Shown here piece after piece: positions 39,818 through 64,000 of a stretch of 64,000 nt of DNA. The DNA lies in NCBI GenBank assembly GCA_003157745.1, contig PMKM01000242.1, positions 67,375 through 131,374 of the forward strand. The letters run 5' to 3'. A program made the translations under genes and the position numbers. How positions within the stretch are numbered: position 1 is the stretch's first letter; every line of letters starts with the position of its first letter. This stretch comes from Bryobacterales bacterium (GTDB taxonomy: Bacteria > Acidobacteriota > Terriglobia > Bryobacterales > Bryobacteraceae). A model generated the notes under the pieces. It was not told the DNA's origin. It saw only the letters and a program-made list of their open reading frames with translations, and made no database searches.

Positions 39818-39819
39818 CC

Positions 39820-40050: not shown

Positions 40051-40297
40051 GCGATGGTACGGCACTTACTTCATCGCGACGAACGTGACGCCCGGAACGG
40101 CGCAGGCCTATAACATCCAGTCGACGTTCTCCGATACCACGCCGCTGCTGTACATCCAGAACAACGACTCGAAAGCCAACCCTCAGTTGCTCGACAAGGA
40201 GATGGAGTACCTGGCAAGCAGGAGCGCAGCAGACTCGGTAGATCCGTAGGACGCGAAGGCCGGTTGATTCCCGACTTGGCGGAACCGGATGTGGTTA

Positions 40298-43634: not shown

Positions 43635-43677
43635 CTTAGCTCGCTAAGCCAGGTCCCACCACATCATGGCTGTTGCC

Positions 43678-44688: not shown

Positions 44689-44726
44689 TGTTCATGCCTA
44701 CTCTCGGGCGGGTTCGAGTGGGTAGC

Positions 44727-45503: not shown

Positions 45504-45536
45504 TCGGCCAGGACCAGCAACCGCGGTGTCTATGCC

Positions 45537-48683: not shown

Positions 48684-49128
48684 TTGAGAATCTATCTCGA
48701 CGCCTGCTGCCTGAACCGTTTGACCGACGATCAGAGCCAAGCCCGAATTCGACAGGAAGCGGAGGCGGTTGAGAGAATCCTTCGCTTGGTACGGACGGGG
48801 CAGGCGACGTGTGTCAGTAGCACGGCCGTCGAGATCGAGATAAGCCGTAATCCAGACGAGAACCGGCGCCATGACGTTACCGCGCTGCTGGCTTTCGCAA
48901 TCGAGGTTGTTGCCGCAACGGGGCACTGCTGCCGAACGCGGCGCACACCTTACGAAGCTCGGATTCGGCGCGTTTGATGCTTTGCACTTGGCGTGCGCGG
49001 AACTCGGGCGTGCCGACGTGTTTCTGACGACCGACGATGACTTGCTTCGACGGGCGGGCCAGTTCGAGAACGAACTTCGCGTTCGCGTCCAAAACCCGGT
49101 ATCCTGGCATCAGGAGACAGGGCGATGA
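48684..49128 (+). pseudogene. PIN-domain toxin gene interrupted by a +1 frameshift in a G4 run
   Basis: RIYLDACCLNRLTDD (first PIN acidic residue) reads in frame 3 up to ...[20 protein letters not shown]...[13 protein letters not shown] continues in frame 1. The frames meet at GGGG (48920-48923), and removing one G restores a ~147-aa ORF. Confidence 0.65.
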
Positions 49129-49793: not shown

Positions 49794-50177
49794 CTAGAAG
49801 GGCGGCACGTCCATGGGCTCCGCCTCCTGCGGAACGGCTTCGGTCTGCTGCTTGGCGCGGTCGAGCTTGAGGATCGACTTGGTCCGGATCTCGACGATGC
49901 GATGCTTTGCGCCGTCCTTCTCGTACTCGCGGCTTCGCAACTCGCCTTCCACCTGAAGGTGCGCGCCCTTCTTGATGTCTGCCGCGAAGGCCGCGAACTT
50001 GGCGCCCCAGACGATGCAGCGGTGCCACTCGGTGCGCGACTGCCATTCGCCAGCGCGATCCTTCCAGGAATCCTTGGTCGCCAGCGAGAGGACCGTGTAA
50101 GGAATCTCATTCTTCGTAACTCGCTTCTCCGCGTTTTTGCCGAGAAAGCCGATGAGAGTGACTCTGTTTTGGAACAT
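49794..50177 (-). CDS. ssb: Single-stranded DNA-binding protein
   Basis: MFQNRVTLIGFLGKNAE...TEWHRCIVWG...GAHLQVEGELRSREYE is an OB-fold SSB pattern. The tail ends in MDVPPF. GGAGA RBS before the ATG at 50177. Confidence 0.85.
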   Translation of the reverse strand: MFQNRVTLIGFLGKNAEKRVTKNEIPYTVLSLATKDSWKDRAGEWQSRTEWHRCIVWGAKFAAFAADIKKGAHLQVEGELRSREYEKDGAKHRIVEIRTKSILKLDRAKQQTEAVPQEAEPMDVPPF

Positions 50178-50889: not shown

Positions 50890-50920
50890 ATGAATGTCGG
50901 GTTTTTGCAAGGGCAGGACC

Positions 50921-51337
50921 ATGCGTCAACAGAGGACATTGCGCGAAAGGATCGAGGAGCGGATCGCACGGAAGCGGCGCGACGACGTGTTCCTTCCCCG
51001 TGAATTCCGGGATCTCGGCGGCGAGGATCAGGTGCTGCGGGTGCTGCGGGGTCTGGTCCGTGAAAGGCGCCTGGTGCGGCTCGGCTACGGCGTCTATGGC
51101 CGTGCCATCGTTTCGCGTCTCACGGGAGAGCCTCTCCTTTACAGCCCGAACGGGTTTCTCGGCGCTGCACGACAAGCCCTCACCAAGCTTGGCGTGAGCT
51201 GGGAACCGACCGAAGCGGAGCGGGCCTATAACGAAGGCCGCTCAACCCAGGTGCCGGTGAATCCGGTCGTGCGGGTGCGGGGACGCTTCTCGCGGCAGCT
51301 CCGTGACGGCACACTGGAGCTGGTGCTTGAGCGATAA
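50921..51337 (+). CDS. abiEi: AbiEi-family antitoxin/transcriptional regulator (type IV TA)
   Basis: The N-terminal wHTH-like segment is VFLPREFRDLGGEDQVLRVLRGLVRERRLVRLGYGVYGR. It overlaps the downstream AbiEii gene. Confidence 0.7.
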   Translation: MRQQRTLRERIEERIARKRRDDVFLPREFRDLGGEDQVLRVLRGLVRERRLVRLGYGVYGRAIVSRLTGEPLLYSPNGFLGAARQALTKLGVSWEPTEAERAYNEGRSTQVPVNPVVRVRGRFSRQLRDGTLELVLER

Positions 51338-52247
51338 ACCTTCACTTCAGGATCTGCTCGAAGTCCAAAGGCACTTTGGGCTGCCGAGCCCGGCGCTGGT
51401 CGAAAAGGACTGGTACGTCGTCAAAGCACTCGGCGCCATCATCGCCGCCGACACGGCGCCGTTCCGGCTGGTGTTCGGCGGGGGCACGGCTCTAAGCCGC
51501 GCGCATCGCCTGATCCGGAGGATGTCGGAGGACATCGATCTCAAGATCGTATCGGCGAGCCCGGCGACACGCCCGGCGCTCCGTCGTCTCCGTGACACGC
51601 TTACCGATGCCCTCCACGAGGCCGGGTTTCAGTTTGACCCGGAAAATCCCGAGCATCGGGAATCCGGCAATGCGAGCCGCTACACCCTCTACCGTCTGCC
51701 CTATGCCTCGATTGCGGCCGGGCAGGGGATCTTGCGGCCGGAGATTCAGATCGAGACAGCCGTCTGGCCGCTGCGCCTTCCACCGGTCGAGCGGCCGGTG
51801 ATATCTTTTGTGGCGGAGGCCTTCAACCGTCCGCCGGAGGTTCCGGCGATCTGCTGCGTGGCGCTCACTGAAACCGTCGCGGAGAAATTCGTGGCGCTCA
51901 CGAGACGGGCAGGGGCCGAGATCGCGGAAGCGGGCGGACCGCGTGATTCAACGCTTGTGCGCCATATATACGATCTGCACGTCATCCGCGCGCATTACGT
52001 TGCTGCCGAGGTCGCGGCACTCGCGCGAACCATCATGCTGGCTGACGCCAAAGCCTACGGCCATCAGTTCCCCGCCTACCGCGACGACCCGGTAGCCGAG
52101 ACAGTACGAGCGGTCGAAGGTCTCAGGAAAGACCCGGACTTCGCTGATCGCTACACCGCGTTCCGTCGGGACATGGTCTACGGTGAGAGCCCGGAATTCG
52201 AGACGGCGATGGCCACGATCACGGCCCTGGCGGGCCGGCTGAGATGA
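51303..52247 (+). CDS. abiEii: AbiEii/AbiGii-family nucleotidyltransferase toxin (DUF1814)
   Basis: EKDWYVVKAL...LVFGGGTALSRAH..IRRMSEDIDLKIV is the DUF1814 NTase signature. The start is uncertain (GTG 51303 or TTG 51327). Confidence 0.8.
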   Translation: MTAHWSWCLSDKPSLQDLLEVQRHFGLPSPALVEKDWYVVKALGAIIAADTAPFRLVFGGGTALSRAHRLIRRMSEDIDLKIVSASPATRPALRRLRDTLTDALHEAGFQFDPENPEHRESGNASRYTLYRLPYASIAAGQGILRPEIQIETAVWPLRLPPVERPVISFVAEAFNRPPEVPAICCVALTETVAEKFVALTRRAGAEIAEAGGPRDSTLVRHIYDLHVIRAHYVAAEVAALARTIMLADAKAYGHQFPAYRDDPVAETVRAVEGLRKDPDFADRYTAFRRDMVYGESPEFETAMATITALAGRLR

Positions 52248-52498
52248 GCGCGGCGGTAAGGTTAACAAATCGCAGGTCATTTGCGGCCGGGCCGCTGTGT
52301 TCTATGATAGTGCTCGAACACGACAATGAAATGGTGGCAAAACCAATCGTGACACACCGGCGTTGCAAGAGTGTATTATTGTCCTCCCTGAACGGCGCAC
52401 TTGCAGAGTTTCCTGAAACGGTCCGCGCTTGCACGTCGCTACAAAGCGCAGTCGCCGGCGTAGGAAAATGGGTCAGAAGCGTTATTAGTTGAAGGGTA

Positions 52499-53836
52499 AT
52501 GCAGGTGATGCTGCCATTCTTGACCGCATACGATCAGGTAGGAGGAAGTTCGGGCAGCATCGACCCGCTCGGGGCGCTTCAGACTTACGGTACACTCGCG
52601 GACTTGCTACTGCCGGGAGTGACTACCATCACCACGCGTTCACGCTATCTTTCCATGGTGTGCGCTGCGCTCGCCAATGCCGAAAAGTGGAGACCTTTTC
52701 TTCCGGGCGCTTCGGGTCTTGCTCAGCGACGAAAATCGGTAGAGCCCTTTGAACGGTTATGGGCACTAGCCTGCGTCGCGGCTCGAACATCTGGTCACGA
52801 AGGCGCGGCCGAGGGTCTGCGGGGCATCACCTACGCCGAGAAAAGCTATCAGAGCTTTGCGAGCAGTGGCAAGAAAGTGAACTGCGACTTTCCGTTGCTG
52901 AAATACCAATCTCGTACTGGTGCGGTCGGCACTTATTGGACCGCATTGGTCGGGGGACAGCTCGTACACGCCGATTCGGGATCGTTGGCCGACGAAGGGC
53001 ATGAACTAGCGAAATGCTTCCCTGAATTACCTCTGGAGAGCAAAGACAGAGGGAGGTTCGCCGATCCAGAAAGTGCCCATCGTGTCTCGCTCTCGCTAGA
53101 GGATCTGGCCGCTTGGGGTGAGAAGTGCCACTTGCAGGCAGCGGGGGGCAAGGAACGTGAGCGGCTGGGAGAAGCGCTGACAGCCGATGATCGCCGCGAA
53201 TGCGTAAGCCACGCGCTCTTAAGGATGGTAGGTGATATCCCGGATGTCTGGGAAACCGGTGATCTGAAGCGCCTGCGTAAGATTCTGGCAACCGTGCCAC
53301 GTGCCGTCGAGCGTGGTCTTCCCGTCGTGATCGACGCCATCGTGGTGACAGAACAATTCCACGAAGCGGTCTTGGCAGCGTTCGACACACTTCTGTGGTG
53401 GGGGACTCAGAATTCAGCCAAGCCCATCGCGGATCTGGTCACCGACCACGATTTCAAGAAGGCCGCCGACCGCTGCCGGGAGACGGCCACCAACCTGAGG
53501 AAATTTCGCGAGGAGTGCGAAAAGCTCGATGTGCGCAATTCGATCGAGGCTCTGGCCGGATTCTGCTTACAGGTGGACCACAGCCGGTCCGAGCGCGAAC
53601 TTGTGGATACGCTGCTGGATCGCCATCATCGTGTTCAATCGGGCAAATTGGACGGGGGAATGCCGAAGCAGGACTGGATCGGGTGTGACAGTACCATGCT
53701 ATTGCGACCGTCGCCCCGTTTCCAACGAAATGAGCGGCCAAGCCGCGCCGCGGGCATGTCACTAACGCACCCGTATCGGGTGGAGCCGTTTGTAGACATG
53801 CTCCGCGAGAACGGGGTGATCCCTGAAAGTAGCTGA
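52499..53836 (+). CDS. Hypothetical protein (445 aa), first gene of a three-gene operon with the PLD and SNF2 genes
   Basis: ATG after GAAGGG. A conserved-looking N-terminus reads IDPLGALQTYGTLADLLLPGVTTITTRSRYLSM. No catalytic motif was recognised. It ends 20 nt before the PLD gene. Confidence 0.7.
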   Translation: MQVMLPFLTAYDQVGGSSGSIDPLGALQTYGTLADLLLPGVTTITTRSRYLSMVCAALANAEKWRPFLPGASGLAQRRKSVEPFERLWALACVAARTSGHEGAAEGLRGITYAEKSYQSFASSGKKVNCDFPLLKYQSRTGAVGTYWTALVGGQLVHADSGSLADEGHELAKCFPELPLESKDRGRFADPESAHRVSLSLEDLAAWGEKCHLQAAGGKERERLGEALTADDRRECVSHALLRMVGDIPDVWETGDLKRLRKILATVPRAVERGLPVVIDAIVVTEQFHEAVLAAFDTLLWWGTQNSAKPIADLVTDHDFKKAADRCRETATNLRKFREECEKLDVRNSIEALAGFCLQVDHSRSERELVDTLLDRHHRVQSGKLDGGMPKQDWIGCDSTMLLRPSPRFQRNERPSRAAGMSLTHPYRVEPFVDMLRENGVIPESS

Positions 53837-53856
53837 AGAGAAGTACTGGATAATGC

Positions 53857-56022
53857 ATGGAACGAAGCTGCCGCCTCCTCGACCATTACTTGCCACCGGG
53901 CGAGGGGTTCGTCCTCGAATCACTCGTTGCGACAACGTACCAGGTCGATTTCGAGTTCTTTGAAGAAGAACTCTTGGCCACTGCGCTTGGTGTTCGGTCA
54001 CCCGTGTGTCGGCTGAAGGCGTTTCGGTCGGAATTAGAGCGAAAGCTTCAAAAGACAGAAGTGTCTGTCCTGTATGACCTTGGAGGCTGTAACCGGCTGG
54101 CTCGTCTATCCCCTCGGATCGACGCCGTCCCTGTGGTTTCCCGCAAGTTGCACTCCAAAATCTCGCTACTGATGTGGATTCGTGAAGACCGTACCGGTGA
54201 CGCGGCACCGGATCGACGAATGCGGCTGATCGTCGGATCGGCCAATCTGACTCGACATGGGTTCCGCCAAAACTATGAGTGCGTCGTGTCCGTGGACTAT
54301 GGCGGACGAATTTCGCCGCCCCGTAACCTTCTGACGACAGCTATCCAATTCGTTCAGCAGATGGGCGCCGAGTCAAACGCTCCACAACTTTCTCGCCAGC
54401 TTGCCACGCTTGCCGTCCAGGCCGCTCTTCTTCCGCAAGGAACCGTCGGGCCTGACGATGCGGTTGCGCTGGTCGCCGCAGACGAAGTCGTTCCGGCCAT
54501 CCGCAACTTGTGGGCTGCGGTGTCGCACGAAACTCCGGAGACGGTGATGGTTGTTTCACCGTTCTGGACCGAAGGCAGTACGGCCCCCGAAGCGCTGTTT
54601 CGCTTGTTTCAACAGCTTGGTACGCCGGCCAATTTGGAGCTGGTTTGTTGCGGCCAGAGGTCGGCGGACGGCCAGTCCTGGCTCCCGGTATTCGACAGCA
54701 GTCTAGCGGTGGATCTAAAGAAGCGGGTCAGCAGCCGACTTTTTTTGCGACCAGCACTACCGGACGCCAGCGTCCAGCATTCGGTGGCCGCGACCAATGA
54801 CATTGGTGACGAACTGGAGGAGAAGGAATTCGCCGCTCGGCTCGGAACCGCAAACGGCAATAATACGGAAGTCCAGCGCTCACTGCACGCGAAGATGCTT
54901 ATCGTGGATGGCAGGGCCGGAAGCATTCTTTACGCGGGGTCGTCGAATTGCACGCGCCGAGGCCTCGGGCTCGGCGGGCCTTCGAACTTTGAAGCAGGAT
55001 TCGTTTACCGCCTCACGCCACGTCAAAGGAAGCAGGTTTCTGATTTGTTGGCATTTGCTGGCCCCGCAACCGAAGTTCACGCCGACGTTGCACCATTAAC
55101 TGTTAAACCTCCCTCCGACGAAGAGACGACGTTCGTTCCGAGGTTTCTATCGGAGGTCGTTGCCTCGGGAACGGTGATCAGAGTCCACTTTCGAGAAACG
55201 GTTCCGACGGATCTCGTCTTACTGATGCCAATCCCCGCGCGGATGGATGAGGCCGGATACTGGCTCGTTTACCGAGCAGATGCACACGGCCAGCCTTCGG
55301 CTGAAGATGTTTCGGTAAATCTCGCGGCGTGCGAAAGATGCGATGAACACCTAAATGCACTTCCGGCCGACCCTTCTGGCCAGGAGATTCTGCCACATGT
55401 TTTTGTTGAGGTTCGTTGGGAGGGTCACGCGGCAGATTTTCCTGTTCGTTTTGACGACAAGACCCGTCTGCCTCTTCTTCTTGTCGGACGTAAACCCACC
55501 GAAGGAGAACTGATTGAATATTTCTTGTACGGCACCGAGCCTGACGCATGGCAGGAAGGAAGCGGTTCACCTGGAGAGGATTCCAAGAGACCGACGACCG
55601 ATGCGCCCATTGATACGAGGCGCATCTTGGCGTACTTCATTCGCCGGTTTGTGCAGGCGATCCCAGGCATTGAAGCTGAAATTCGACGTGCTGGCTACTC
55701 GCGCGCGTCGCTCGACGCAGCATTACGTGGTCCCACGAGCCCACTGGAGCTAGCGGAACGTGCCTATGCGAGTCTTGCGCGGGCCGCAACACCAGACCAG
55801 CCGGCAAAGACCCCGACGGCTGTCGGGTTCCAGTTGGTGGAGATACTCGCAGCGCTGCTCCGGTGCCGTTCTCTTGTCACCGAGTTTGAGTTATTGGACT
55901 GTTTCGAGCCTGTGATTGCGAGTTGCAGGAAGATGTTGGACACCTTGGCATCGGAGCAGCCAACACTACAGCAGGAGGGGTTTCGCTTTTACCAGCAACG
56001 AATCCTGGGAGACGCGAAATGA
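53857..56022 (+). CDS. Phospholipase-D-superfamily (double HKD) protein with a ~350-aa unassigned C-terminal region
   Basis: The first HKD motif is LHSKISLLMW...LIVGSANLTRHG (His codon 54151-54153). The second is LHAKMLIVDG...LYAGSSNCTRRG (His codon 54886-54888). Confidence 0.85.
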   Translation: MERSCRLLDHYLPPGEGFVLESLVATTYQVDFEFFEEELLATALGVRSPVCRLKAFRSELERKLQKTEVSVLYDLGGCNRLARLSPRIDAVPVVSRKLHSKISLLMWIREDRTGDAAPDRRMRLIVGSANLTRHGFRQNYECVVSVDYGGRISPPRNLLTTAIQFVQQMGAESNAPQLSRQLATLAVQAALLPQGTVGPDDAVALVAADEVVPAIRNLWAAVSHETPETVMVVSPFWTEGSTAPEALFRLFQQLGTPANLELVCCGQRSADGQSWLPVFDSSLAVDLKKRVSSRLFLRPALPDASVQHSVAATNDIGDELEEKEFAARLGTANGNNTEVQRSLHAKMLIVDGRAGSILYAGSSNCTRRGLGLGGPSNFEAGFVYRLTPRQRKQVSDLLAFAGPATEVHADVAPLTVKPPSDEETTFVPRFLSEVVASGTVIRVHFRETVPTDLVLLMPIPARMDEAGYWLVYRADAHGQPSAEDVSVNLAACERCDEHLNALPADPSGQEILPHVFVEVRWEGHAADFPVRFDDKTRLPLLLVGRKPTEGELIEYFLYGTEPDAWQEGSGSPGEDSKRPTTDAPIDTRRILAYFIRRFVQAIPGIEAEIRRAGYSRASLDAALRGPTSPLELAERAYASLARAATPDQPAKTPTAVGFQLVEILAALLRCRSLVTEFELLDCFEPVIASCRKMLDTLASEQPTLQQEGFRFYQQRILGDAK

Positions 56023-59000
56023 GGATCTCCCCGGAAATCGATCTCGGCCGTTCGCTACGCCAGGTGTTTGGCAACAAGGTGGATTTCACTGCCCAAATCG
56101 AGAATGACTGCGCGCGGCAGTCGGAGACGACAAGCGCTATCCTTCGCCGGTTCGTCGGCGCCAAGGAGTCTGAACGACGCGAGTTGGTGGTCTTGGCCGA
56201 CGAAGTGGGTCTGGGCAAGACCTACGTGGCGTTGGCGGTTGCCGTCTCTATACTGGACGCCATTCGGCGGGGAGAAACGCCGGATGGACTTCCTTCGAAC
56301 AAGCCGGTCGTACTTGTTTTGACTCCGACGAACGATGCCTTGTTCAACAAGTGGATGCGGGAGGCGGAAGCCTTCAAGAAGGATTGCGCCAGAACCGACG
56401 GGGGCTTGGAGTGGCTTCAAATTCGTAGCCCGATCGACAACCGCAGCAAATCCGGCAACGTGATAGACGTTTCTGCGCAAATACGTGATGCCAGTCGCAG
56501 TCACCCAATACTGCTCATTGCCAAACAAGGTGCTCTTGGCGCAGCCCTGCATGAGCGCGACTTGTGGCGCCGCCGCGGCCTAGCGGCCCTATTCGGTCAA
56601 TTTCGTACCTCAATTGAAACTCGTCGATATTGGTGCCGGAAGGGTCGTGTATTCGATAACTTTGGTATCCCTGAACTGAACGAATTGCTTGATCTTCGCA
56701 GTTCGGGGCATTTGTGGGAGGATTCGTTTTCCCCTGACTTGCAGCGAGCCTTTTCTCGCGCACTCCAGGTCAACTCTAACCTCGCCGGTCGCGCGGAGCA
56801 GGCACTGAGCGGCGCCGATGAAGAGAGCCTCTCGGGTGTCCTCGATGACTTGGCCCGTCACGCACTCGTGACTGATTGGCCATTATTCCCGCTAGTTATC
56901 ATCGACGAAATCCATGGACTAAAGAATCAGTACGTCCAGTCCAGACAGCATATTCAGAGACTGTTAACCGGGAGACTCTGCCGTTTGCTTGGCTTGTCAG
57001 CCACACCGTTCCAACTTCGACATGACGAACTCCTAAGCGTATTGAAGCTTCGATCCACCCTGGCGTTACCCAGCGAGCGGTCCGACGTTCTTGACCAAGC
57101 CGAGGCGACTCTCGGCGCCGCCATGAGCGCGGCGCGTGAGTCCGGTGAGATATTCCGTAGAAGATGGATAGGCCTCCGATGTTCCGATCAAGAAGTCGTC
57201 TCCGAAACGTGGAATGCCGTTATGAAAGCAGAGCGATCCGAGCGGCAGACGCGCGCTGCCCAAATCCGTCCGCCACGGGTTGCTCATGCCATCGCTGCGG
57301 CTCTGGATCTCGAACAACGTAATTCTGATCTGCGACGGCATCTGCGGCCCTTCGTTATCCGCCATCAGCATCTTCGCGGCTATCGTGAACACTTCGTTGG
57401 CAATCAAGCGGCACTAGCCGGCAACCATGGAAGCCGGAGCTTTAGCTGGTCTCCCGGAATGGAAGTGTCTGGCAACGATGAACTCGCGCAATATCTTATG
57501 ATGCGGGCCGTCGGACTGGCGAAGGAGGAGCGAGGGTTGCCCGGCCTCGGGGCCGAGCTAACGGGCAGTTACAGGCACCTAGTCGAGACGGCGGCCGTGT
57601 GGAAGAAGCTGGCGCAAGCCAGTAATCCACTGCTTCGAGAGTATCGAAAGATTCTCGAGGAAATGATCGGAAAACGGACGGAATCTCACGATCCTGACGA
57701 CGCACATCGCAAAGTCCAAACGACGGTGCATCGCGCCCTGGAATTCTTCAAGCGAGGTCAGAAGTCGTTGGTGTTTTGCGTCTACACAAAGACGGCCGAG
57801 GCCGTTCGGGACCAGCTTCAGAAGGCGATCGACAATTACCTCGCCGAGATCCGTGATGAGGTTTTTGGGGATGCTGCCGCATTCGACAATTTTCGGCGCC
57901 GTTTCTTTAATCGGCGCGAGGCCCTTTTCTCTCTGATTCAAGACCACCCGCTGCTCGGCGAGCTTCGCGGAGGCCGCGTCGGTGTCCGCTCGCAGGTCGC
58001 CTTGACGGTCGATCATCTCCGGCAGATTGGGGCGTTGATGGTGGACAAAGGGGAGTATGCCTATTCCGACAAGGCCGACCGCCGCCTCCTCATCGCGGCG
58101 ACGGAGCATGTCGCCGTGAAATCGTGGCGAGGTGACCCCGAGGGATTGAGATGGTTACGGGAAGAAGTCCTGCGAAATTGTCCAGAACTTGAAGACAGGA
58201 TGGCCGATCCGCGCTGGTTGGAAGCACGGGAACCGTTGTCAAGAAGTGAACGGGCAGGGCGCGCCAGGCGATTTTCAGATCCCGAGGCGAGCAAAGATTC
58301 CGCAGATCCATTGGAAGCCGAGGAAACCGACGCTCGTGCGGAGACGGGCCGGACCGAAGGCTCGGCAAAGAATGCTGTCGAATCTTGGGTGCGACGACTT
58401 CGTGAGGACGCGATTGGGGAGATCGTCGCTCCGTATTTTCGTCAGGGACTAATCGATGCCTCCGGGAGCCATCAGCCGCTCCTGGTTACGCATCATCAGG
58501 GGGCATTGGCAGAGTTTGATCTGGAGACGCGCGCGGTTGCGGGACAAGTGTTTCGCCGTATTCTCATGGCCGAGGAGTTTCTCCTGCGCTACCTGGCCGA
58601 TGTCGAAAAGGTGCAGACGGAGCGGTGGGCTGGCTACCTGTCGGACCGATACGTCAAGCCTCTCAAGGGCCATCTGGAATCGTTGCGTGATCGCGTTCAT
58701 GCCTATCTGGAGACTCTCGTTCGTGCGAAGAAGAACAACGCTTTGCTGGACGGATACCACAACGGGGCTGAAAACCGCAACGTTGTCCAGCTCGTAAGAG
58801 GTGATACTCAAAACCGAGACCGCTATTTTCTGGGGTTCAACACGCCGTACCGACCGGAGATTCTTGTTTCGACTTCGGTTGGGCAGGAAGGGATCGACCT
58901 GCACCGCGAGTGTCGACACATTATCCATCATGACCTATGTTGGAATCCTGCAACGATTGAGCAACGTACAGGACGGGTTGATCGGATTGGTAGCAAGGTT

Positions 59001-59333
59001 GAGCGTGAGCGCATGGGAGTGCCAGATGGGGAAGGACCAACACTTGAAGTAGCGATTCCCTACTTAGCGGCGACGTACGATGAACGAATGTTCGAGGAAC
59101 TCTATCGACGTGCGCAGCTATTTGAGGCGACGCTTGGAGGAGAAATGCGGGTGGAAGGTCGCATCGACCCGGAGCAGGCCGCTTCCGAACATCGGCAAAG
59201 GGAAATACTGGGAATCGGAACTGAGGACGAGGATATTGGCGAGGAAAACAGCGAAGCGGGGGTTGTCGATCTCCCGGCAGACATGATTGAGCAGCTTCGG
59301 GTTGATCTTTCGGTGTGGAAGGTGCCTGAATGA
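56019..59333 (+). CDS. SNF2-family helicase (1104 aa) with large insertions between the core motifs
   Basis: ATGA overlap with the PLD gene. The core motifs are: I, LADEVGLGKT (56208-56222 region); II, VIIDEIHGLKN (56904-56915); III, LGLSATPFQL; IV, LVFCVYTKT; V, VSTSVGQEGIDL; VI, QRTGRVDRIGS. Confidence 0.85.
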   Translation: MRISPEIDLGRSLRQVFGNKVDFTAQIENDCARQSETTSAILRRFVGAKESERRELVVLADEVGLGKTYVALAVAVSILDAIRRGETPDGLPSNKPVVLVLTPTNDALFNKWMREAEAFKKDCARTDGGLEWLQIRSPIDNRSKSGNVIDVSAQIRDASRSHPILLIAKQGALGAALHERDLWRRRGLAALFGQFRTSIETRRYWCRKGRVFDNFGIPELNELLDLRSSGHLWEDSFSPDLQRAFSRALQVNSNLAGRAEQALSGADEESLSGVLDDLARHALVTDWPLFPLVIIDEIHGLKNQYVQSRQHIQRLLTGRLCRLLGLSATPFQLRHDELLSVLKLRSTLALPSERSDVLDQAEATLGAAMSAARESGEIFRRRWIGLRCSDQEVVSETWNAVMKAERSERQTRAAQIRPPRVAHAIAAALDLEQRNSDLRRHLRPFVIRHQHLRGYREHFVGNQAALAGNHGSRSFSWSPGMEVSGNDELAQYLMMRAVGLAKEERGLPGLGAELTGSYRHLVETAAVWKKLAQASNPLLREYRKILEEMIGKRTESHDPDDAHRKVQTTVHRALEFFKRGQKSLVFCVYTKTAEAVRDQLQKAIDNYLAEIRDEVFGDAAAFDNFRRRFFNRREALFSLIQDHPLLGELRGGRVGVRSQVALTVDHLRQIGALMVDKGEYAYSDKADRRLLIAATEHVAVKSWRGDPEGLRWLREEVLRNCPELEDRMADPRWLEAREPLSRSERAGRARRFSDPEASKDSADPLEAEETDARAETGRTEGSAKNAVESWVRRLREDAIGEIVAPYFRQGLIDASGSHQPLLVTHHQGALAEFDLETRAVAGQVFRRILMAEEFLLRYLADVEKVQTERWAGYLSDRYVKPLKGHLESLRDRVHAYLETLVRAKKNNALLDGYHNGAENRNVVQLVRGDTQNRDRYFLGFNTPYRPEILVSTSVGQEGIDLHRECRHIIHHDLCWNPATIEQRTGRVDRIGSKVERERMGVPDGEGPTLEVAIPYLAATYDERMFEELYRRAQLFEATLGGEMRVEGRIDPEQAASEHRQREILGIGTEDEDIGEENSEAGVVDLPADMIEQLRVDLSVWKVPE

Positions 59334-59427: not shown

Positions 59428-62400
59428 TCATGCGGGGGCGGGCATGCTGCCAACGGTCGCAGAGTTCGATGCCGTTGCTGCGCTGATCTCACGCCACTCG
59501 CGGAGCAGGGGAAAATAGAGTCCGGCACGTATGGGACGCTGTTCCCACTGGGCGAAGAGCCGCCGGTACCGTTCGAGTTGCTCACGGTAGCGCTCGCGCT
59601 CGTTGTCCAAAAACGCGTCGAGTCCGGCGCCTTCGTGGGAGCTCGTCTTGTAGTCGATGATCCAGCGCACGCCGTCCGGATCAACGAAGGTACGGTCGAT
59701 GCGGACGCTGACGGTTTCGCCGTCGAGCACGCCGCAGACGGGCAGTTCGCACGCAGCTTCGTGCACAGCGCCGCCGCCGAGGACCCACCTGCCGCGCTCT
59801 TCCGCGAGTGCCGAGGCCAGGGCCTCGCAGACGCGATTGGCGGCGCCCGCCACGGCGGCCTCAGGCACGCCCAGCGCCGACAATGCCGCGCCGTAGGCCG
59901 GCTTCATGGATTCGACGCGCGCGGCATTCCAACTTTCCAGCCCATCCTCGGCGATGCGCCGCATCATCTGGTGGACTACGGTGCCAGTGTGTCGCAGCGT
60001 GTCGCCCACCCAGCGGAAACTGACGGGCTCGAATGCGTCGGCTTCCCCGGTAGCGTCTCCTGCCGTCGCCACGGCCGCAGGCGGCGCAGGGCGCTGCCAA
60101 GCAAGGGTCAGCCGCTCGATCGTCTTCGGAACTCTCGCCGCAACTTCCACGTCCCCGTCGGCGGGAAATTCCAGGGCGGCCGCGACAGCAGCGAAGTCGG
60201 GCTCGGCCGCGGTCCACATCCGTCGCAGAAGCGACGCGGCATCGGGCGGCTTCGCGGTGACAATCCCATCGCTTATCTTGCATGTGGTGTGGCCCAGCAG
60301 GTGCAACTCGCTGCGCGCCCGGGTGGCCGCCACGTAAAGCATCCGGCCGGCTTCGAACTCCGCTTTGCGGGTGTCGATTCGCTTGAGGTAGTTGTAGGTG
60401 GCGTCCTCACCGGCGCCGGTGGCGGGAAGTGGGGCGAGCAGCAGATCCGGGTCGGCGCCTAAATGGGGACGCTCCTGCCACAGCATCAGCCGCGAGTCCT
60501 CATTACGCGGCTTCCGTCCCAGGCCAGGCAGGATGACGACTTCGAACTCCAGGCCCTTGGCCTGGTGCATGGTCATCACCTGCAGCGACTCGTCGGCGTC
60601 CGCATCGGGATGGGCGTAGAGTCTCTTGATTCCCTGCTCCAATTCGTCAACGTCGATCGCGCCGCCGCGATCAAGGCGTTCCAACAGGTCCAGGAAGGTC
60701 CCTGCGTCGGCGACGGCGCTAACGCCGGCCGCGCACGCCGGACCGCCGAGCCCGAGCCATGCTCCTTCCACCCATTGCCGCAGCGAAGCGCACCGGTGGG
60801 CGAAGGCGGAGTCGAGCACAGCGCGCACGCGCAGCAGATGATCGCGATCATCCGGATCGAGCGTCCGCACCAGGGACTCGTCGTGCACCAAGTCCCACAC
60901 CGCTGCGCCGCGCTTGCCGCCAGCGAGCTTGTGCAGCCCCGCGAGCGTGAGGCCGCACCACGGCGCGCGCAGAATGCCCAGCCACGCGACGCGGTCGGCG
61001 GGATGCAGCAAAGCGCGGGTCAGCGCCATCAGGTCCTGGATTAGCGGAACGCCAGAGAGCTCGTCGATTTCCACCGCACGGAATCGCAATCCCGCCCTGC
61101 CGAGCGCGCGCAGGATAGCGCGGAGATGGGTGCGGGCGCGGACCAGGATCGCCACCGCCTTGGCACCGCGGCCCTGCGCCGCGCGGACCAACTCGACCAC
61201 ATCCGCCGCCTCCCGCGCGTCGTCGCGCCCGACATAGGCATGAAGCGCGACAGCCGGGTTCAGCTTCAGGCCGCACACCGGGTCGGAGCGGCGGAACGGG
61301 ATGGCGCCAGTGGCGATGTCCTCGCCCACCGGCAGCACATCGGGAAACGTGGCGTTGACCCAGGTGACGATGCCTTCGTCGGAGCGGAAATTCGCGGACA
61401 GGCGCAATGGCTCCAGCGTGACGTCGCCGATGCCTTCATGGCAGGCCTTCAGAAATAGGCCCACCATCGCTTCGCGGAAGCGGTAGATGGACTGCATCGG
61501 GTCCCCGACGGCGAATACCGTGCGGCCGTCGCCTGGCTCCCACCCGGCTGTTAGCCGTTCGAGCAGCGTGTGCTGGCTCACCGAGGTGTCCTGGAACTCG
61601 TCCACGAGCAGGTGCCGGATCTGGTAGTCGAGCCTGAGGGCAAGCTCGGTCGGGTCGCCGTCTTCGCCGAGCGCACGCAGTGCGGCGAGAGAAACTTCGG
61701 CGTAATCGGCCACACCCACGCGACGGAACTCCACCTGCAACTCCGCCACTGCCACCGGCAGCACCTGGAGCAGCGCCTCTAACGCGCGCCACTGCGGTTC
61801 ATCGTAGCGGGCCGAGGGCAGGACCCGCAGTTCGGCTAATGCGAGGCGGAACTTTTCCTCCGCGGCCAAGTCGGCCAGCAGCACCACGCAACGATCCTTC
61901 ATCGGCTTGTTGGCCGGCGTAAAGCCCTGGTTCTTGTTGACTGTCCTGCGCCACTCATCTTTGCCGGTGAGCAGCATGTCCGCGATGGCGAGCCACGCGT
62001 CTATGCCGCCGTCGTCCGGAAGCGCGCCGATGCCCGCGCAAGCCGTGCCCGCATTGGCTCCGCCGAAAGCTGCTATCGAGACGATCTCGCCCATCAACGC
62101 CGGTGGCGTGGCCGCGCGTGCGAAAGCGACTCCATCGCGAATGGCGCGGTCGAGAGCGGCCTCCAACTGTGCACGCAGCGCCGCGGGATCTGGCGTTCCT
62201 ATCACGTGGCGCAGCCACTGGTCGCGCCGCTTCAGCATTTCGGCGATGAGTTTTCGCAGCGTCTGGAAATCGTTGTCGAGGTGCATCAGCAGCGCTTCCA
62301 CAGGTGCGCTCCACCGGTCTCCCTCCAGCAGTTCGATGGTGTGGCGCGCGGCCTCGGCGTAGAGGTCGCTCGCGTCCTCGACGATTTCCGGCGGCGCGCC

Positions 62401-62808
62401 GAGCCGCGACACCCACGGCATCTGCCGCGTGATGGACGTCGCGAGCGAGTCGATCGTGCGCACGCGCAGACGGGATGGGTTGCGGAACAGATCCCAGCCG
62501 AACGCTTTGTCGCGGTCGAGCACGGCCCGCGCCAGTTCCCATGTCAAGGCCGCATGATCCGCTTCCGGCCGCGGCCCGACTCCGTCGAGCAGGGCTTTCA
62601 GCATGCGCCGGTGCATCTCGCCGGCGGCTTTGCGCGTGAACGTGATCGCCACCACACTCTCGGGTTGCTCGACGCGTGCCAGCAGTGTGAGGTAGCGTTG
62701 GATCAGCAGTTCGGTCTTGCCGGATCCGGCCGGAGCCTGCACAATGAAGGAACGCTCCGGATCGAGCGCGCGTTTTCTCTGATCGGCATCCGGAATTGTG
62801 GCGGTCAT
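59428..62808 (-). CDS. addA: AddA-type helicase-nuclease (UvrD-like helicase plus a C-terminal PD-(D/E)XK nuclease)
   Basis: QAPAGSGKTELL (Walker A), LLVDEFQDTS, VMTMHQAKGLEF, YVAATRARS and the C-terminal nuclease motif IIDYKTS. The ATG at 62808 forms an ATGA overlap with the addB stop. Confidence 0.85.
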   Translation of the reverse strand: MTATIPDADQRKRALDPERSFIVQAPAGSGKTELLIQRYLTLLARVEQPESVVAITFTRKAAGEMHRRMLKALLDGVGPRPEADHAALTWELARAVLDRDKAFGWDLFRNPSRLRVRTIDSLATSITRQMPWVSRLGAPPEIVEDASDLYAEAARHTIELLEGDRWSAPVEALLMHLDNDFQTLRKLIAEMLKRRDQWLRHVIGTPDPAALRAQLEAALDRAIRDGVAFARAATPPALMGEIVSIAAFGGANAGTACAGIGALPDDGGIDAWLAIADMLLTGKDEWRRTVNKNQGFTPANKPMKDRCVVLLADLAAEEKFRLALAELRVLPSARYDEPQWRALEALLQVLPVAVAELQVEFRRVGVADYAEVSLAALRALGEDGDPTELALRLDYQIRHLLVDEFQDTSVSQHTLLERLTAGWEPGDGRTVFAVGDPMQSIYRFREAMVGLFLKACHEGIGDVTLEPLRLSANFRSDEGIVTWVNATFPDVLPVGEDIATGAIPFRRSDPVCGLKLNPAVALHAYVGRDDAREAADVVELVRAAQGRGAKAVAILVRARTHLRAILRALGRAGLRFRAVEIDELSGVPLIQDLMALTRALLHPADRVAWLGILRAPWCGLTLAGLHKLAGGKRGAAVWDLVHDESLVRTLDPDDRDHLLRVRAVLDSAFAHRCASLRQWVEGAWLGLGGPACAAGVSAVADAGTFLDLLERLDRGGAIDVDELEQGIKRLYAHPDADADESLQVMTMHQAKGLEFEVVILPGLGRKPRNEDSRLMLWQERPHLGADPDLLLAPLPATGAGEDATYNYLKRIDTRKAEFEAGRMLYVAATRARSELHLLGHTTCKISDGIVTAKPPDAASLLRRMWTAAEPDFAAVAAALEFPADGDVEVAARVPKTIERLTLAWQRPAPPAAVATAGDATGEADAFEPVSFRWVGDTLRHTGTVVHQMMRRIAEDGLESWNAARVESMKPAYGAALSALGVPEAAVAGAANRVCEALASALAEERGRWVLGGGAVHEAACELPVCGVLDGETVSVRIDRTFVDPDGVRWIIDYKTSSHEGAGLDAFLDNERERYREQLERYRRLFAQWEQRPIRAGLYFPLLREWREISAATASNSATVGSMPAPA

Positions 62809-64000
62809 TCGGCCCCCTCTTCGTCCTGTTCCTCGTCGCCCGTGGCGCGGCAAAGCACCGGCAGGTGGCAGTAGGTGCAACTCTGGTTCGGATCCTTGGG
62901 ATCGGGCTCGGCGTGCCCGGCGCGGAAATCGCTCGCGAGTTTTTCGAGCACCGTATTCCAGGCCTCCACCTGCGCGGCAAGGTCGGTGGCCTTCGCCCCC
63001 GAGATCGCATCCCCGGTATCCACCCAACCGAGGAACCGCGACTCGCCGGTCCGCAACTGAGCGAACAGAACGCCGGCGAGCGTTCCAGGATAGGTGGCGC
63101 AGTAGAGCGGCAGTTGCGGCTCTTTGGGACGCGCGGAATCCCAATCGCCGATGGTTGCCTTGCCGGTCTTGTAATCGATGATGATGTCGCGGCCATCGGG
63201 CAGCCGGTCGATGCGGTCGATCTTAACCTTGCACGGGATGCCGCCGAGTTCGACCAAGCGCTCGCCTTCCTGTTCCACCAGTTCGAACGGCGGGCGCTGC
63301 CTTTCGATCTCTAGCCATTCGGCGATCACGTTCTCCAGCCGCCGTCGCTCCAAGGCGGCAAAGCGCGACGGCAGCGCGGCGCCACGTTTGGCCTCCAGGG
63401 CAGCGACCGATTCCGCTACTGCCGTACGGATGACGTCCGGGATATCGGTGCGTTCACAGAGCGCCGCCTGCGACTTCACTTCGCGCCACACCCGCTCCAG
63501 CACACCGTGGACGAGCGTCCCGCGCTCCCGCGGCGCCAAGCCCGATTCCGGCTTCTCCATGGCTTCGACGTCGAGGCGCAGTTCGGCGAAGGCGCGGAAG
63601 GGGCACGCGGCCTGGTACTTGAAAACGTTGGCGCCACCGCGCTGGCGGGCGCCTTCGGGCAGCGGCGGAGCGGTTTCGTCCACTAACCGCTCGACCTCGC
63701 GAGACCGCTGCACCACGCTGGTGTAATCCTCGCCCTGCCACAACGCGAGGTCGGCGGCCGTAGCTTTCGATACGCGTAAAATCAGCGGGCTGGGGGCGAG
63801 GTCCCGCTCGCCGTCGCGGACGGGGTAGCTGAGCACGATATCTGCCGCGCTGGCGAGAAGGCGGTCGGTGATCAACATCGCAAAGGTAAGTTCGCGCTCC
63901 GGCGAGCAGCGCGGCAAACCGGCGGCGCGCTGCAGCCCCAGCGGCAGAAACGGGTTCGGTTTCGGCGCCCCCGGCCAAGCTTCGTCGTGCAGGCCGGACA
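62805..64000 (-). CDS. addB: AddB-type nuclease subunit, C-terminal part (5' end beyond the right window edge)
   Basis: The frame is open to position 64000 (checked codon by codon). The nuclease motif is IIIDYKTGK and the Cys cluster is CTYCHLPVLC. It lies directly upstream of addA. Confidence 0.75.
   Translation of the reverse strand, partial: SGLHDEAWPGAPKPNPFLPLGLQRAAGLPRCSPERELTFAMLITDRLLASAADIVLSYPVRDGERDLAPSPLILRVSKATAADLALWQGEDYTSVVQRSREVERLVDETAPPLPEGARQRGGANVFKYQAACPFRAFAELRLDVEAMEKPESGLAPRERGTLVHGVLERVWREVKSQAALCERTDIPDVIRTAVAESVAALEAKRGAALPSRFAALERRRLENVIAEWLEIERQRPPFELVEQEGERLVELGGIPCKVKIDRIDRLPDGRDIIIDYKTGKATIGDWDSARPKEPQLPLYCATYPGTLAGVLFAQLRTGESRFLGWVDTGDAISGAKATDLAAQVEAWNTVLEKLASDFRAGHAEPDPKDPNQSCTYCHLPVLCRATGDEEQDEEGAE

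What the first reader, a model, noticed from the sequence alone, without database searches (positions are those of the whole stretch)
52499..59333. Three-gene operon of an unassigned 445-aa protein, a double-HKD PLD protein and an SNF2 helicase with large insertions: candidate anti-phage/anti-plasmid system
**Seen in the sequence**
- The three co-directional genes are tightly coupled: a 20-nt gap, then an ATGA start/stop overlap at 56019-56022.
- By eye the patch is AT-richer than the flanking addA and abiE genes.
- It sits at the end of an island that also holds AbiE, a PIN gene and an orphan ssb.
- The PLD protein has two intact HKD motifs (His codons 54151 and 54886), followed by about 350 aa with no motif I recognise.
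- The helicase has all SNF2/SF2 motifs, but with about 230 aa inserted between motifs I and II and about 350 aa between motifs IV and V.
- The first protein has no recognisable catalytic motif.

**Established knowledge**
- PLD-nuclease plus helicase pairings recur in defence systems: DISARM (DrmC with DrmA/DrmD), Mokosh and Azaca.

**Inference**
- There is no methyltransferase, no DUF1998 protein and no RNA-helicase-type MkoA here, so it is neither DISARM nor Mokosh.
- The closest architecture I can recall is Azaca (ZacABC), but I cannot verify homology, gene order or sizes from memory.
- It is therefore either a divergent member of that family or an undescribed PLD/SNF2 system.
Basis: partly seen in the sequence, partly recalled or inferred. 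Interest (0 to 1): 0.8.

Follow-up and report, generated by a model that had tools for sequence, protein, structure and literature searches.

The report
Azaca-like PLD nuclease–helicase defence cassette
Three tightly linked genes (a helical protein of unknown fold, a phospholipase-D-type nuclease and an SNF2-type motor) form a mobile cassette that is an unnamed sister family of the Azaca and PDC-M27 anti-phage systems; it most likely cuts invading DNA, but nobody has tested it.

Summary
Three co-directional genes lie at 52508-59333, with a 20-nt gap and then an ATGA overlap. They are lower in GC than their flanks.

- **B** has two H-x-K...GSxN half-sites.
- **C** has all the SF2/SNF2 motifs, with long spacers between them.
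- **A** matches no Pfam family.

- The window proteins score 31/71/110 bits against PADLOC ZacA/B/C.
- They score 0/23/122 bits against PDC-M27A/B/C. Genuine PDC-M27 trios score 570-1290 bits.
- Pfam DUF6361, the ZacA domain, is sub-threshold in A.
- Profile-profile comparison still shows homology to PDC-M27: A over its full length, B over its double-PLD half, C over its C-terminal helicase lobe.

The trio is kept in the same order in every sufficiently long locus I examined. This covers a 55-87% identity clade spread over Planctomycetota, Acidobacteriota and Afipia, and a ~30-36% clade in several other phyla. Conservation starts exactly at A's ATG. Contexts vary: conjugative elements, plasmids, type I R-M, BREX, AbiE.

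A folds confidently into an all-helical structure with no PDB or viral analogue.

Verdict: a real, mobile, uncharacterised third branch of the Azaca/PDC-M27 superfamily. A defence function and an ATP-coupled PLD restriction mechanism are inferred, not shown.

The parts
52508..53836 (+). Gene A: 442-aa all-alpha protein. The ORF opens at 52499, but homologues start at 52508. Homologous over its full length to PDC-M27A, and shares only an N-terminal motif with ZacA/DUF6361. Proposed role: scaffold or sensor subunit.
   Evidence: start and conservation. (ZacA 31.5 bits over aa 17-64; DUF6361 13.8 bits, below the cut-off of 25). (hhalign against PDC-M27A: probability 93.3%, E 2.6e-7, 420 columns). 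(AlphaFold2 pLDDT 93.5, pTM 0.90, about 20 helices, residues 1-16 disordered). (no structural or sequence analogue in the PDB or BFVD).
53857..56022 (+). Gene B: 721-aa single-chain double-PLD nuclease. Modelled layout: PLD lobe 1 (aa 18-148), helical insert (156-222), PLD lobe 2 (229-400), a family-specific beta-rich domain (405-535) and a helical C-terminal domain (549-717).
   Evidence: PLDc_2, 43 bits. (ZacB 71 bits, aa 10-480). (invariant residues). (AlphaFold2 pLDDT 80, pTM 0.84). (Foldseek hits to PssA 3hsi, SauUSI 7clg and NgoAVII R 4rct, over the PLD part only). (hhalign against PDC-M27B: 97.8%, aa 24-389 only).
54151..54246 (+). PLD half-site 1: H99-x-K101 ... G127-S128-A-N130. The Asp of the HKD motif is absent.
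   Evidence: positions. (H99, K101, S128, N130 and E141 are invariant in 34 sequences).
54886..54948 (+). PLD half-site 2: H344-x-K346-x4-D351 ... G361-S362-S-N364.
   Evidence: (H344, K346, S362, N364 and E379 are invariant; D351 is present only in the close clade).
56019..59333 (+). Gene C: 1104-aa SNF2/SF2-type ATPase with long spacers between motifs I and II and between motifs IV and V. Its start codon overlaps the stop codon of B (ATGA).
   Evidence: Helicase_C 48.5 bits; ResIII, DEAD, SNF2-rel_dom. (PDC-M27C 122 bits, ZacC 110 bits). (motif map). (hhalign against PDC-M27C: 99.5%, E 2.7e-22, over aa 925-1039). (the only PDB sequence relative is RapA).
56199..56222 (+). Motif I / Walker A of C (DEVGLGKT, aa 61-68).
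   Evidence: Invariant across both clades.
56904..56915 (+). Motif II / Walker B of C (DEIH, aa 296-299).
   Evidence: D296, E297 and H299 are invariant.
58869..58997 (+). Motifs V-VI of C (STSVGQEGIDLHRECRH...EQRTGRVDRIGSK, aa 951-993). This is the signature shared with PDC-M27C and ZacC.
   Evidence: The best PADLOC stretches fall here.
52248..52507 (+). Non-conserved 260-nt spacer between abiEii and gene A. A GC hairpin with a T-rich tail lies at 52283-52295, just after the abiEii stop. This is the presumed promoter region of the trio, and conservation with other loci begins only at A's ATG.
   Evidence: sequence. (hairpin; no sigma-70 consensus promoter found). (upstream DNA and small upstream ORFs are not conserved between loci).

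Best explanation
The three genes form a self-contained, horizontally mobile cassette. It is a third, unnamed family within the Azaca (ZacABC) / PDC-M27 superfamily of nuclease-NTPase defence systems.

**Proposed mechanism (inferred)**
- A, B and C assemble into one complex.
- C is an SNF2-type ATPase. It binds and translocates on double-stranded DNA, or remodels it.
- B is a single-chain pseudo-dimeric phospholipase-D nuclease with one composite active site (H99/K101/N130 plus H344/K346/N364). It cuts DNA without metal through a phospho-histidine intermediate.
- A is a new all-helical fold with a conserved but flexible N-terminal tail. It acts as the scaffold or licensing (sensor) subunit.
- The cassette carries no methyltransferase. 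Self/non-self discrimination must therefore rest on a feature of the invader, such as hypermodified DNA as for BmAzaca and SauUSI, or on a replication or entry intermediate.

**Shown versus inferred**
- Shown: gene anatomy, intact catalytic motifs, homology to PDC-M27 and partial similarity to Zac models, conservation of the cassette, horizontal spread, and mobile-element or defence-island contexts.
- Inferred: complex formation, the DNA target, and the protective phenotype.
For: **Architecture and motifs**
- Gene order, coupling and motif positions are confirmed.
- The catalytic H/K/S/N/E residues in both PLD halves are invariant across 34 sequences.
- Walker A, DExH and motifs V-VI of C are invariant across both clades.

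**Family relations**
- The best PADLOC hits are ZacA, ZacB, ZacC and PDC-M27C.
- hhalign, A family against PDC-M27A: 93.3%, full length.
- hhalign, B against PDC-M27B: 97.8%.
- hhalign, C against PDC-M27C: 99.5%.

**Cassette behaviour**
- A-B-C occur in the same order in every sufficiently long locus from the genome collection, metagenome contigs and plasmids.
- Identities of the three proteins rise and fall together: 77/76/81% in L013, 57/55/54% in L022, and about 33/31/35% in the distant clade.
- Conservation starts exactly at A's ATG.

**Mobility**
- Copies 67-80% identical occur in Planctomycetota, Acidobacteriota and Afipia.
- GC is below the flanks in the window.
- The window carries a T4SS, integrase and primase module, plus SSB and AbiE.
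- L003 carries Tn7-like genes, SSB, ArdC and a T4SS.
- A copy lies on a Methylocystis plasmid.

**Defence neighbours**
- A type I R-M system lies directly upstream in L009.
- A reverse transcriptase and an SNF2 helicase flank L007.
- BrxC/D, PglW, NERD and Mrr occur among 94 flanking ORFs.
- A Macro-domain protein and an SMC-like ATPase flank L047.

**Structural and biochemical analogy**
- The PLD part of B resembles the nuclease domains of the restriction enzymes SauUSI and NgoAVII.
- BmAzaca needs all three proteins and the ZacC Walker A motif to cleave T4 DNA (bioRxiv 10.1101/2025.07.10.664194).

**Dispensability**
- Truncated remnants exist in L028, L030, L036, L025 and L038.
Against: - No member of this family has been tested.
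- PDC-M27 is itself only a candidate system.
- No ZacA sequence was available, so homology of A to ZacA rests on a 48-residue HMM match.
- Many flanking genes are ordinary metabolic genes. The neighbourhood evidence is anecdotal, not a statistical enrichment.
- In two unrelated genomes the cassette abuts addAB-type repair genes.
- No relatives were found on viral contigs, so there is no link to phages from that side.
- The C-terminal half of B and the spacers of C have no assignable function.
Confidence: 0.65

Rival explanations
1. It is simply Azaca: a highly divergent but genuine ZacABC system with the same biology, namely restriction of hypermodified T-even-like phage DNA.
For: - The three-gene order and domain content are the same.
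- ZacA, ZacB and ZacC are among the top PADLOC hits.
- The only Pfam signal in A is DUF6361, at the same N-terminal motif.
- 13 of 42 members of the A family hit ZacA.
Against: - The DUF6361 match is below the Pfam cut-off (13.8 bits against 25).
- None of the 42 family members reaches Pfam E<=1e-3.
- The ZacA match covers 12% of the profile.
- C scores slightly better against PDC-M27C than against ZacC.
- B's C-terminal 330 aa lie outside the aligned ZacB and PDC-M27B regions.
- Protein sizes differ from the ZacA/B/C profile lengths: 442/721/1104 aa against 396/586/1019 positions.
Confidence: 0.15
2. The cassette serves the mobile element, not the host. It is cargo of conjugative elements and plasmids that destroys competing plasmids or conjugative elements (anti-MGE or exclusion), or helps establishment after transfer. 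Anti-phage immunity is not its role.
For: - It lies in or next to conjugative elements in the window (T4SS, integrase, SSB).
- The same is true in L003 (Tn7-like genes, SSB x2, ArdC, T4SS).
- ArdC lies next to it in L005.
- A copy is plasmid-borne in Methylocystis.
- No copies were found on viral contigs.
Against: - Many copies have no element genes within 8-10 kb. They sit by R-M, BREX-type or metabolic genes instead.
- The mechanism would be the same nuclease-helicase action, so this is a difference of target, not of kind.
- Relatives (Azaca) protect against phage.
Confidence: 0.15
3. It is a DNA repair or recombination accessory module that works with AddAB/SbcCD, not an immune system.
For: - The trio is convergent with and immediately adjacent to addA-addB(-sbcC) in the window.
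- It is also adjacent to an AddAB-like pair in an Acidobacteriota genome whose AddA is only 27% identical.
- SNF2 ATPases and PLD nucleases can act in repair.
Against: - Only 2 of about 25 distinct loci show this adjacency.
- Flanks are otherwise unrelated.
- The cassette has moved between phyla and has lower GC than addA.
- Truncated remnants are found.
- The closest relatives are defence or candidate-defence systems.
Confidence: 0.04

Closest known systems
Azaca (ZacA/ZacB/ZacC; Millman et al. 2022, cited from my own knowledge; biochemistry in bioRxiv 10.1101/2025.07.10.664194)
   Same: - A three-gene operon in the same order: an unknown protein of about 400 aa, a PLD nuclease, and a large SF2/SNF2 helicase.
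- There is no methyltransferase.
- The N-terminal motif of A matches the ZacA/DUF6361 profile.
- ZacB aligns to aa 10-480 of B.
- ZacC is among the top hits for C.
   Different: - Scores are far below what members would give: 31/71/110 bits.
- DUF6361 is below the Pfam threshold in the window protein, and absent at E<=1e-3 in 42 family members.
- B carries an extra beta-rich domain and a helical C-terminal domain of about 330 aa.
- All three proteins are longer than the Zac profiles.
- Hosts are Planctomycetota, Acidobacteriota and Proteobacteria from the environment.
- No phenotype is known.
PDC-M27 (PADLOC-DB v2 phage-defence candidate, three genes A/B/C; for example Rhodoferax antarcticus plasmid NZ_CP019242 61.8-66.4 kb and Vibrio nigripulchritudo plasmid NZ_AP027051)
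   Same: - The architecture is the same.
- A is homologous over its full length (hhalign 93.3%, 420 columns).
- The double-PLD core of B is homologous (97.8%).
- The C-terminal lobe of C shares a specific signature, GFNTP..TSV.QEG..LH..CR, EQR.GRVDR, PYLA..DE (99.5%, 38% identity).
   Different: - HMM scores are 0/23/122 bits for the window, against 571-605/729-805/1206-1288 bits for true members.
- PDC-M27B is 640-670 aa and does not align to the C-terminal half of B.
- PDC-M27C is about 870 aa and lacks about 100 aa of the spacer between motifs I and II, among other segments.
- PDC-M27 itself has not been validated experimentally, as far as I could find.
SauUSI and NgoAVII (ATP-dependent restriction enzymes with a PLD nuclease)
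   Same: - The PLD nuclease fold is similar (Foldseek E 2e-4 and 1e-3).
- The logic is the same: PLD cleavage coupled to an NTPase or helicase, with no cognate methylase in the case of SauUSI, which is modification-dependent. That last point is from my own knowledge.
   Different: - SauUSI is one polypeptide, and NgoAVII is a two-protein system with a B3-like DNA-binding domain.
- Neither has an A-like subunit.
- Similarity is limited to the PLD domain.
DISARM (DrmC/DrmD) and Dpd (DpdE/DpdK)
   Same: Short motif-level matches of B to DrmC and DpdK, and of C to DrmD and DpdE.
   Different: - Scores are far below the NCBIfam cut-offs: 25 against 133, 73 against 610, 76 against 500.
- The cassette contains no DrmA/DrmB (DUF1998), no methyltransferase and no 7-deazaguanine genes.

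Membership tests
Azaca (ZacABC) | Three co-directional genes: a protein of unknown function of about 400 aa, then a PLD nuclease, then an SF2/SNF2 helicase. | tested here: met
   The ORF map and Pfam domains fit. The order is conserved in all long loci.
Azaca (ZacABC) | ZacA carries the DUF6361 domain (PF19888), as stated in bioRxiv 10.1101/2025.07.10.664194. | tested here: not met
   - Pfam gives E 0.029 and 13.8 bits, against a gathering score of 25. Only aa 23-55 align, to profile positions 32-64 of 388.
- None of 42 family members hits any Pfam family at 1e-3.
Azaca (ZacABC) | Full-length match of each protein to the ZacA, ZacB and ZacC HMMs. | tested here: not met
   - ZacA: 31.5 bits over 48 of 396 positions.
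- ZacB: 71 bits over positions 12-435 of 586.
- ZacC: 110 bits in 3 short stretches.
- The distant clade shows the same pattern.
- I did not have the thresholds used by PADLOC or DefenseFinder.
Azaca (ZacABC) | Protection against T-even phages, with all three proteins and the ZacC Walker A motif required for DNA cleavage. | not testable with these tools
   This needs experiments. The catalytic residues that would be required are intact.
PDC-M27 | Full-length match to the PDC-M27A, B and C HMMs. | tested here: not met
   - Window: no PDC-M27A hit, B 23 bits, C 122 bits.
- True members on the Rhodoferax and Vibrio plasmids: A 571-605, B 729-805, C 1206-1288 bits, end to end.
Azaca/PDC-M27 superfamily (as proposed here) | All three proteins are homologous to those of a named member. 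| tested here: met
   hhalign against PDC-M27:
- A: 93.3% probability over 420 columns.
- B: 97.8% over aa 24-389.
- C: 99.5% over aa 925-1039.

The C-terminal half of B and the middle of C are not covered.
DISARM | DrmA (helicase) plus DrmB (DUF1998) plus DrmC (PLD), with a methyltransferase and/or DrmD. | tested here: not met
   - Only sub-threshold DrmC and DrmD motif hits were found.
- No DUF1998 protein or methyltransferase lies in the cassette or its conserved boundaries.
Mokosh | An MkoA-type RNA helicase with a PLD nuclease. | tested here: not met
   There is no MkoA hit among the best PADLOC matches for C. C has SNF2-type motifs.

The most novel reading that the evidence does not exclude
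This is a distinct, experimentally untouched three-component immune system, a sister family to Azaca and PDC-M27. Its A subunit has a fold with no solved analogue and acts as the sensor that licenses a PLD-SNF2 restriction machine. The cassette spreads between phyla on conjugative elements, and could target incoming conjugative or hypermodified DNA by a recognition principle not yet described.
Probability: 0.4. Interest if true: 0.6.

Novelty: new variant of a known kind. Interest (0 to 1): 0.45.

Why it matters
**Annotation gap.** Azaca-type systems are among the least understood nuclease-helicase defences. The role of ZacA and the basis of target choice are both unknown. This family is not captured at full length by the PADLOC, Pfam or NCBIfam models I scanned. 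Every copy I saw is annotated 'hypothetical protein' or generically as a PLD-domain protein.

**Spread.** The family is widespread. The A profile finds 489 cluster representatives at E<=1e-3 and 116 at E<=1e-30. It occurs in soil and aquatic Planctomycetota, Acidobacteriota and Proteobacteria, whose immune repertoires are poorly charted.

**What it would enable.**
- Recognising the family would improve defence annotation in these phyla.
- It adds a third, divergent set of sequences. The invariant residues of the A subunit stand out across these: DPLG, R-x-R-Y, LRG, RHH-VQ-GK, HPYR.
- It offers a confidently modelled A protein for structural and mutational work on how this superfamily senses its target.

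**Limit.** It is an extension of a known architecture, not a new principle.

Tried and rejected
**Searches that gave nothing**
- I looked for genuine ZacA sequences for a direct profile-profile test. The supplements of the Azaca biochemistry preprint are not held. The E. coli defence-island paper's supplements do not mention Azaca. Millman 2022 is not in the library. The ZacA link therefore rests on HMM hits only.
- Foldseek of A against the PDB and BFVD gave no match at E<=1e-3, with best TM scores of 0.1-0.2.
- PDB sequence searches with the A and B profiles gave nothing. For C the only hit was RapA.
- I looked for island boundaries. There is no tRNA in the window and no convincing flanking direct repeats.
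- The consensus promoter scan found no site upstream of A, and terminator-like hits were at chance level.
- A viral-contig scan for close relatives of A found none.

**Ideas tested and rejected**
- A conserved fourth gene or leader upstream of A. Small ORFs of 76-82 aa are called upstream in several loci, but they are not homologous. The upstream DNA does not align either.
- Synteny by descent with addAB. The AddA proteins of the window and L001 are only 27% identical over 313 aa.
- Widespread pseudogenisation. The apparent frameshifts in L001, L003, L024 and L035 are in long-read MAGs, and the short-read copy L002 of the L001 locus is intact, so they are probably assembly errors. Only 5 loci are true truncations.

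**Technical limits**
I used the third protein search to obtain admissible ones.
- The mixed alignment A2 was too divergent for the locus finder.
Full report
**1. Observation**

- The A-B gap is 20 nt. The B stop and C start overlap as ATGA.
- All 18 aligned homologues of A begin at MLPFLTAYD, so the real start is probably the ATG at 52508, giving 442 aa.
- GC is 0.576 for the trio. It is 0.61-0.65 on the AbiE side and 0.67 in addA.
- In B, His99 and His344 are encoded at 54151 and 54886, as stated.
- Motif 1 of B reads HSKISLLM and has no Asp. The Asp of motif 2 is not conserved in distant relatives.
- The residues that never vary in 34 sequences are H99, K101, S128, N130, E141 and H344, K346, S362, N364, E379. 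These are the residues PLD nucleases need.
- C has GLGKT (aa 64-68), DEIH (296-299), SATP (327-330), motif IV near 583-590, GQEGIDL (955-961) and QRTGRVDR (982-989). That gives about 228 aa between motifs I and II and about 365 aa between IV and V.
- A matches nothing in Pfam or NCBIfam at E<=0.01.

**2. Surroundings in the window**

AbiEi (DUF6088) and AbiEii lie directly upstream. An SSB gene lies at 49794-50177 on the minus strand. I could not confirm a PIN gene in any ORF between 47.1 and 50.4 kb.

Further upstream the window carries a conjugative-element module:
- VirB11-like ATPase, TrbC, VirB3, VirB4, TrbL, VirB8, VirB9 and VirB10;
- an excisionase-like HTH protein and a tyrosine integrase;
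- a DUF3854/VapE primase and an ISL3 transposase fragment.

A low-GC block of glycosyl- and sulfotransferase genes follows it. Downstream, convergent with C, are addA, addB and sbcC at GC 0.67. The trio therefore sits at the far end of a large island of foreign DNA, next to core repair genes. I found no tRNA and no flanking repeats that would mark the island's ends.

**3. Comparison with known defence models**

| Window protein | Best PADLOC matches |
|---|---|
| A | ZacA, 31.5 bits, aa 17-64 only |
| B | ZacB, 71 bits, aa 10-480; PDC-M27B, 23 bits |
| C | PDC-M27C, 122 bits; ZacC, 110 bits; then DrmD, BrxH, DpdE |

- Pfam DUF6361, the domain that defines ZacA, scores 13.8 bits in A against a cut-off of 25.
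- NCBIfam hits to DrmC, DrmD, DpdE and DpdK are far below their cut-offs.
- For calibration I found genuine PDC-M27 trios on a Rhodoferax antarcticus plasmid and a Vibrio nigripulchritudo plasmid. They score 571-605, 729-805 and 1206-1288 bits end to end.
- The window trio is therefore a member of neither Azaca nor PDC-M27 by HMM criteria.

**4. Homology to PDC-M27 is nevertheless real**

- Profile-profile comparison aligns the A family with PDC-M27A over 420 columns (probability 93.3%, E 2.6e-7). The shared motifs are T-x-Y/F-D, DPLG, R-x-Y, LRG-I/V, Q-x3-G-x2-G-x-Y, H-x2-V, PW and a C-terminal aromatic motif.
- B aligns with PDC-M27B over the double-PLD module only, aa 24-389 (97.8%).
- C aligns with PDC-M27C most strongly over motifs V-VI and the following PYLA-x2-Y/F-DE segment (99.5%, 38% identity).
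- In the wider A family, 13 of 42 members weakly hit ZacA and 3 hit PDC-M27A. None hits any Pfam family.
- The simplest reading is one superfamily with at least three branches.

**5. The trio behaves as a unit**

- A profile of A finds 489 cluster representatives at E<=1e-3 among 1.84 billion proteins, and 116 at E<=1e-30.
- I examined 29 loci from species-representative genomes, several metagenome contigs and three plasmids. Every locus long enough has A, B and C in this order.
- Identities of the three proteins to the window rise and fall together: 77/76/81% in L013, 57/55/54% in L022, and about 33/31/35% in a distant clade. That clade is found in Vicinamibacterales, Alphaproteobacteria, Bradymonadia, Haliangium and other Proteobacteria.
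- Still deeper A subfamilies (P0162, P0227) are also followed by a 691-712 aa PLD protein and an 1144-1151 aa SNF2 protein.
- Upstream DNA does not align between loci. Conservation begins at ATG CTG CCA TTC. Small ORFs called upstream are unrelated to each other. The unit is exactly three genes, with no partner methyltransferase.

**6. The cassette is mobile and keeps defence or mobile-element company**

Copies 67-80% identical to the window occur in Gemmataceae, Pirellulales, Phycisphaeraceae, Acidobacteriaceae, Terriglobia and an Afipia MAG. That pattern fits recent horizontal transfer, not vertical descent.

The contexts differ from locus to locus:
- Tn7-like genes, two SSB genes, ArdC and a T4SS in L003;
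- ArdC in L005;
- an SNF2 helicase and a reverse transcriptase in L007;
- a complete type I R-M system directly upstream in L009;
- a Methylocystis plasmid copy beside QueC-like, XRE, Fic and methyltransferase genes;
- a Macro-domain protein and an SMC-like ATPase in L047.

A bulk scan of 94 flanking ORFs from 17 further loci found BrxC/D, DUF7008, PglW, NERD, Mrr, IS66 transposases, SNF2 helicases and a DACNG sensor. It also found plain metabolic enzymes. This is suggestive, but it is not a statistical enrichment.

Five loci hold truncated remnants. Other apparent frameshifts are in long-read MAGs, and the short-read copy of one of these loci is intact, so they are probably assembly errors. 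No close relative lies on IMG/VR viral contigs.

**7. Structures**

- **A**, modelled with a 42-sequence alignment, gives pLDDT 93.5 and pTM 0.90. It is a bundle of about 20 helices with a disordered N-terminal 16 residues. That tail nonetheless carries some of the family's most conserved residues.
- Foldseek finds nothing similar to A in the PDB or BFVD. Sequence profiles find nothing in the PDB either.
- **B** gives pLDDT 80 and pTM 0.84. The model has two PLD lobes separated by a helical insert, then a beta-rich domain (405-535) and a helical domain (549-717).
- Only the PLD part of B has analogues: phosphatidylserine synthase, and the nuclease domains of the restriction enzymes SauUSI and NgoAVII.

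**8. Mechanism**

The only biochemistry for this superfamily is on BmAzaca. All three proteins are needed, the nuclease site and the ZacC Walker A motif are essential, and glucosyl-hmC T4 DNA is preferred. By homology, and because the motifs are intact, I propose the following.
- A, B and C form a complex.
- C supplies ATP-driven DNA translocation or remodelling.
- B cuts through a single composite PLD site.
- A scaffolds or licenses the reaction, perhaps docking through its conserved tail.
- With no methylase in the unit, discrimination must come from the invader's DNA chemistry or state.

All of this is inference.

**9. Rivals**

- **Divergent true Azaca.** This would need genuine Zac sequences to settle.
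- **An anti-plasmid or element-serving role.** The ICE and plasmid contexts leave this open. It would differ in target, not in mechanism.
- **A repair role with AddAB.** This is suggested only by adjacency in two unrelated genomes, and it is outweighed by the cassette's mobility and variable flanks.

**10. Verdict**

This is a real, conserved, mobile three-gene cassette and a new variant (third branch) of the Azaca/PDC-M27 kind. It is worth experimental follow-up, mainly for the uncharacterised A subunit and for annotating defence in neglected phyla. It is not a new principle. Interest 0.45.

Noticed in passing
window 25000-41200: A conjugative-element module: VirB11-like ATPase, TrbC, VirB3, VirB4/TrbE, TrbL (31554-32783), VirB8, VirB9/CagX and VirB10/TrbI. 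It continues with an HTH_17 excisionase-like gene, a tyrosine integrase (about 36137-37183), a DUF3854/VapE-like primase and an ISL3 transposase fragment. The trio may be distal cargo of this element. The element's ends were not found.
   Followed up: partly
window 50894-52247: An AbiEi (DUF6088) / AbiEii toxin-antitoxin pair lies directly upstream of the trio, with overlapping genes. It is a separate, known abortive-infection system.
   Followed up: partly
window 49794-50177 (-): An isolated SSB gene (Pfam SSB, 85.6 bits). SSB genes and ArdC also sit beside the trio in L003 and L005. They may belong to a conjugative leading region.
   Followed up: partly
None of nine small ORFs tested here has a Pfam PIN match at E<=1. 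A 133/77-aa gene pair at about 48471-49110 (-) has the layout of a toxin-antitoxin pair but matches no family.
   Followed up: partly
window 41500-47500: A low-GC block (0.52-0.55) of glycosyltransferase (GT8, nucleotide-diphospho-sugar transferase) and sulfotransferase genes. It lies between the conjugative module and the SSB/AbiE/trio region. It is probably separate acquired cargo.
   Followed up: no
window 59428-64000 (-); L001 16990-21326: In the window the trio is convergent with addA-addB-sbcC. In an unrelated Acidobacteriota genome (L001/L017) it is also convergent with an AddA/AddB-like pair, whose AddA is only 27% identical. This could be coincidence, an insertion hot spot or a functional link. 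It is unresolved.
   Followed up: partly
L041 2811-8789 (Rhodoferax antarcticus plasmid NZ_CP019242); L042 2707-8753 (Vibrio nigripulchritudo plasmid NZ_AP027051): Genuine, full-length PDC-M27 A/B/C trios sit on plasmids, beside WYL/DUF2779 and Tn3 genes in one case and nucleotidyltransferase, SLATT and reverse-transcriptase genes in the other. They are annotated only as 'hypothetical', 'PLD-like' or 'DEAD/DEAH helicase'.
   Followed up: yes
L040 6882-10345 (Methylocystis sp. MJC1 plasmid NZ_CP107561, 123881-127344, continuing across the record start): A window-type trio on a plasmid, with C running across the origin of the circular record. Its neighbours include a QueC-like 7-cyano-7-deazaguanine synthase, an XRE regulator, a Fic protein and a methyltransferase.
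   Followed up: partly
window 52508-52573 (A residues 1-22): The N-terminal tail of A is predicted to be disordered (pLDDT below 50 for residues 1-16). Yet it holds some of the most conserved residues of the whole superfamily (F/L-T-x-Y-D ... S-I-D-P-L-G), and it is the only part matched by the ZacA and DUF6361 profiles. It may be a docking peptide.
   Followed up: no
L028, L030, L036, L025, L038: Truncated remnants of the cassette. L028 has A plus the first 150 aa of B. L030 has a deletion fusing B residue 153 to C residue 397. L036, L025 and L038 hold only an 80- or 137-aa N-terminal fragment of A, and L025 and L038 are two high-coverage contigs of one MAG.
   Followed up: partly
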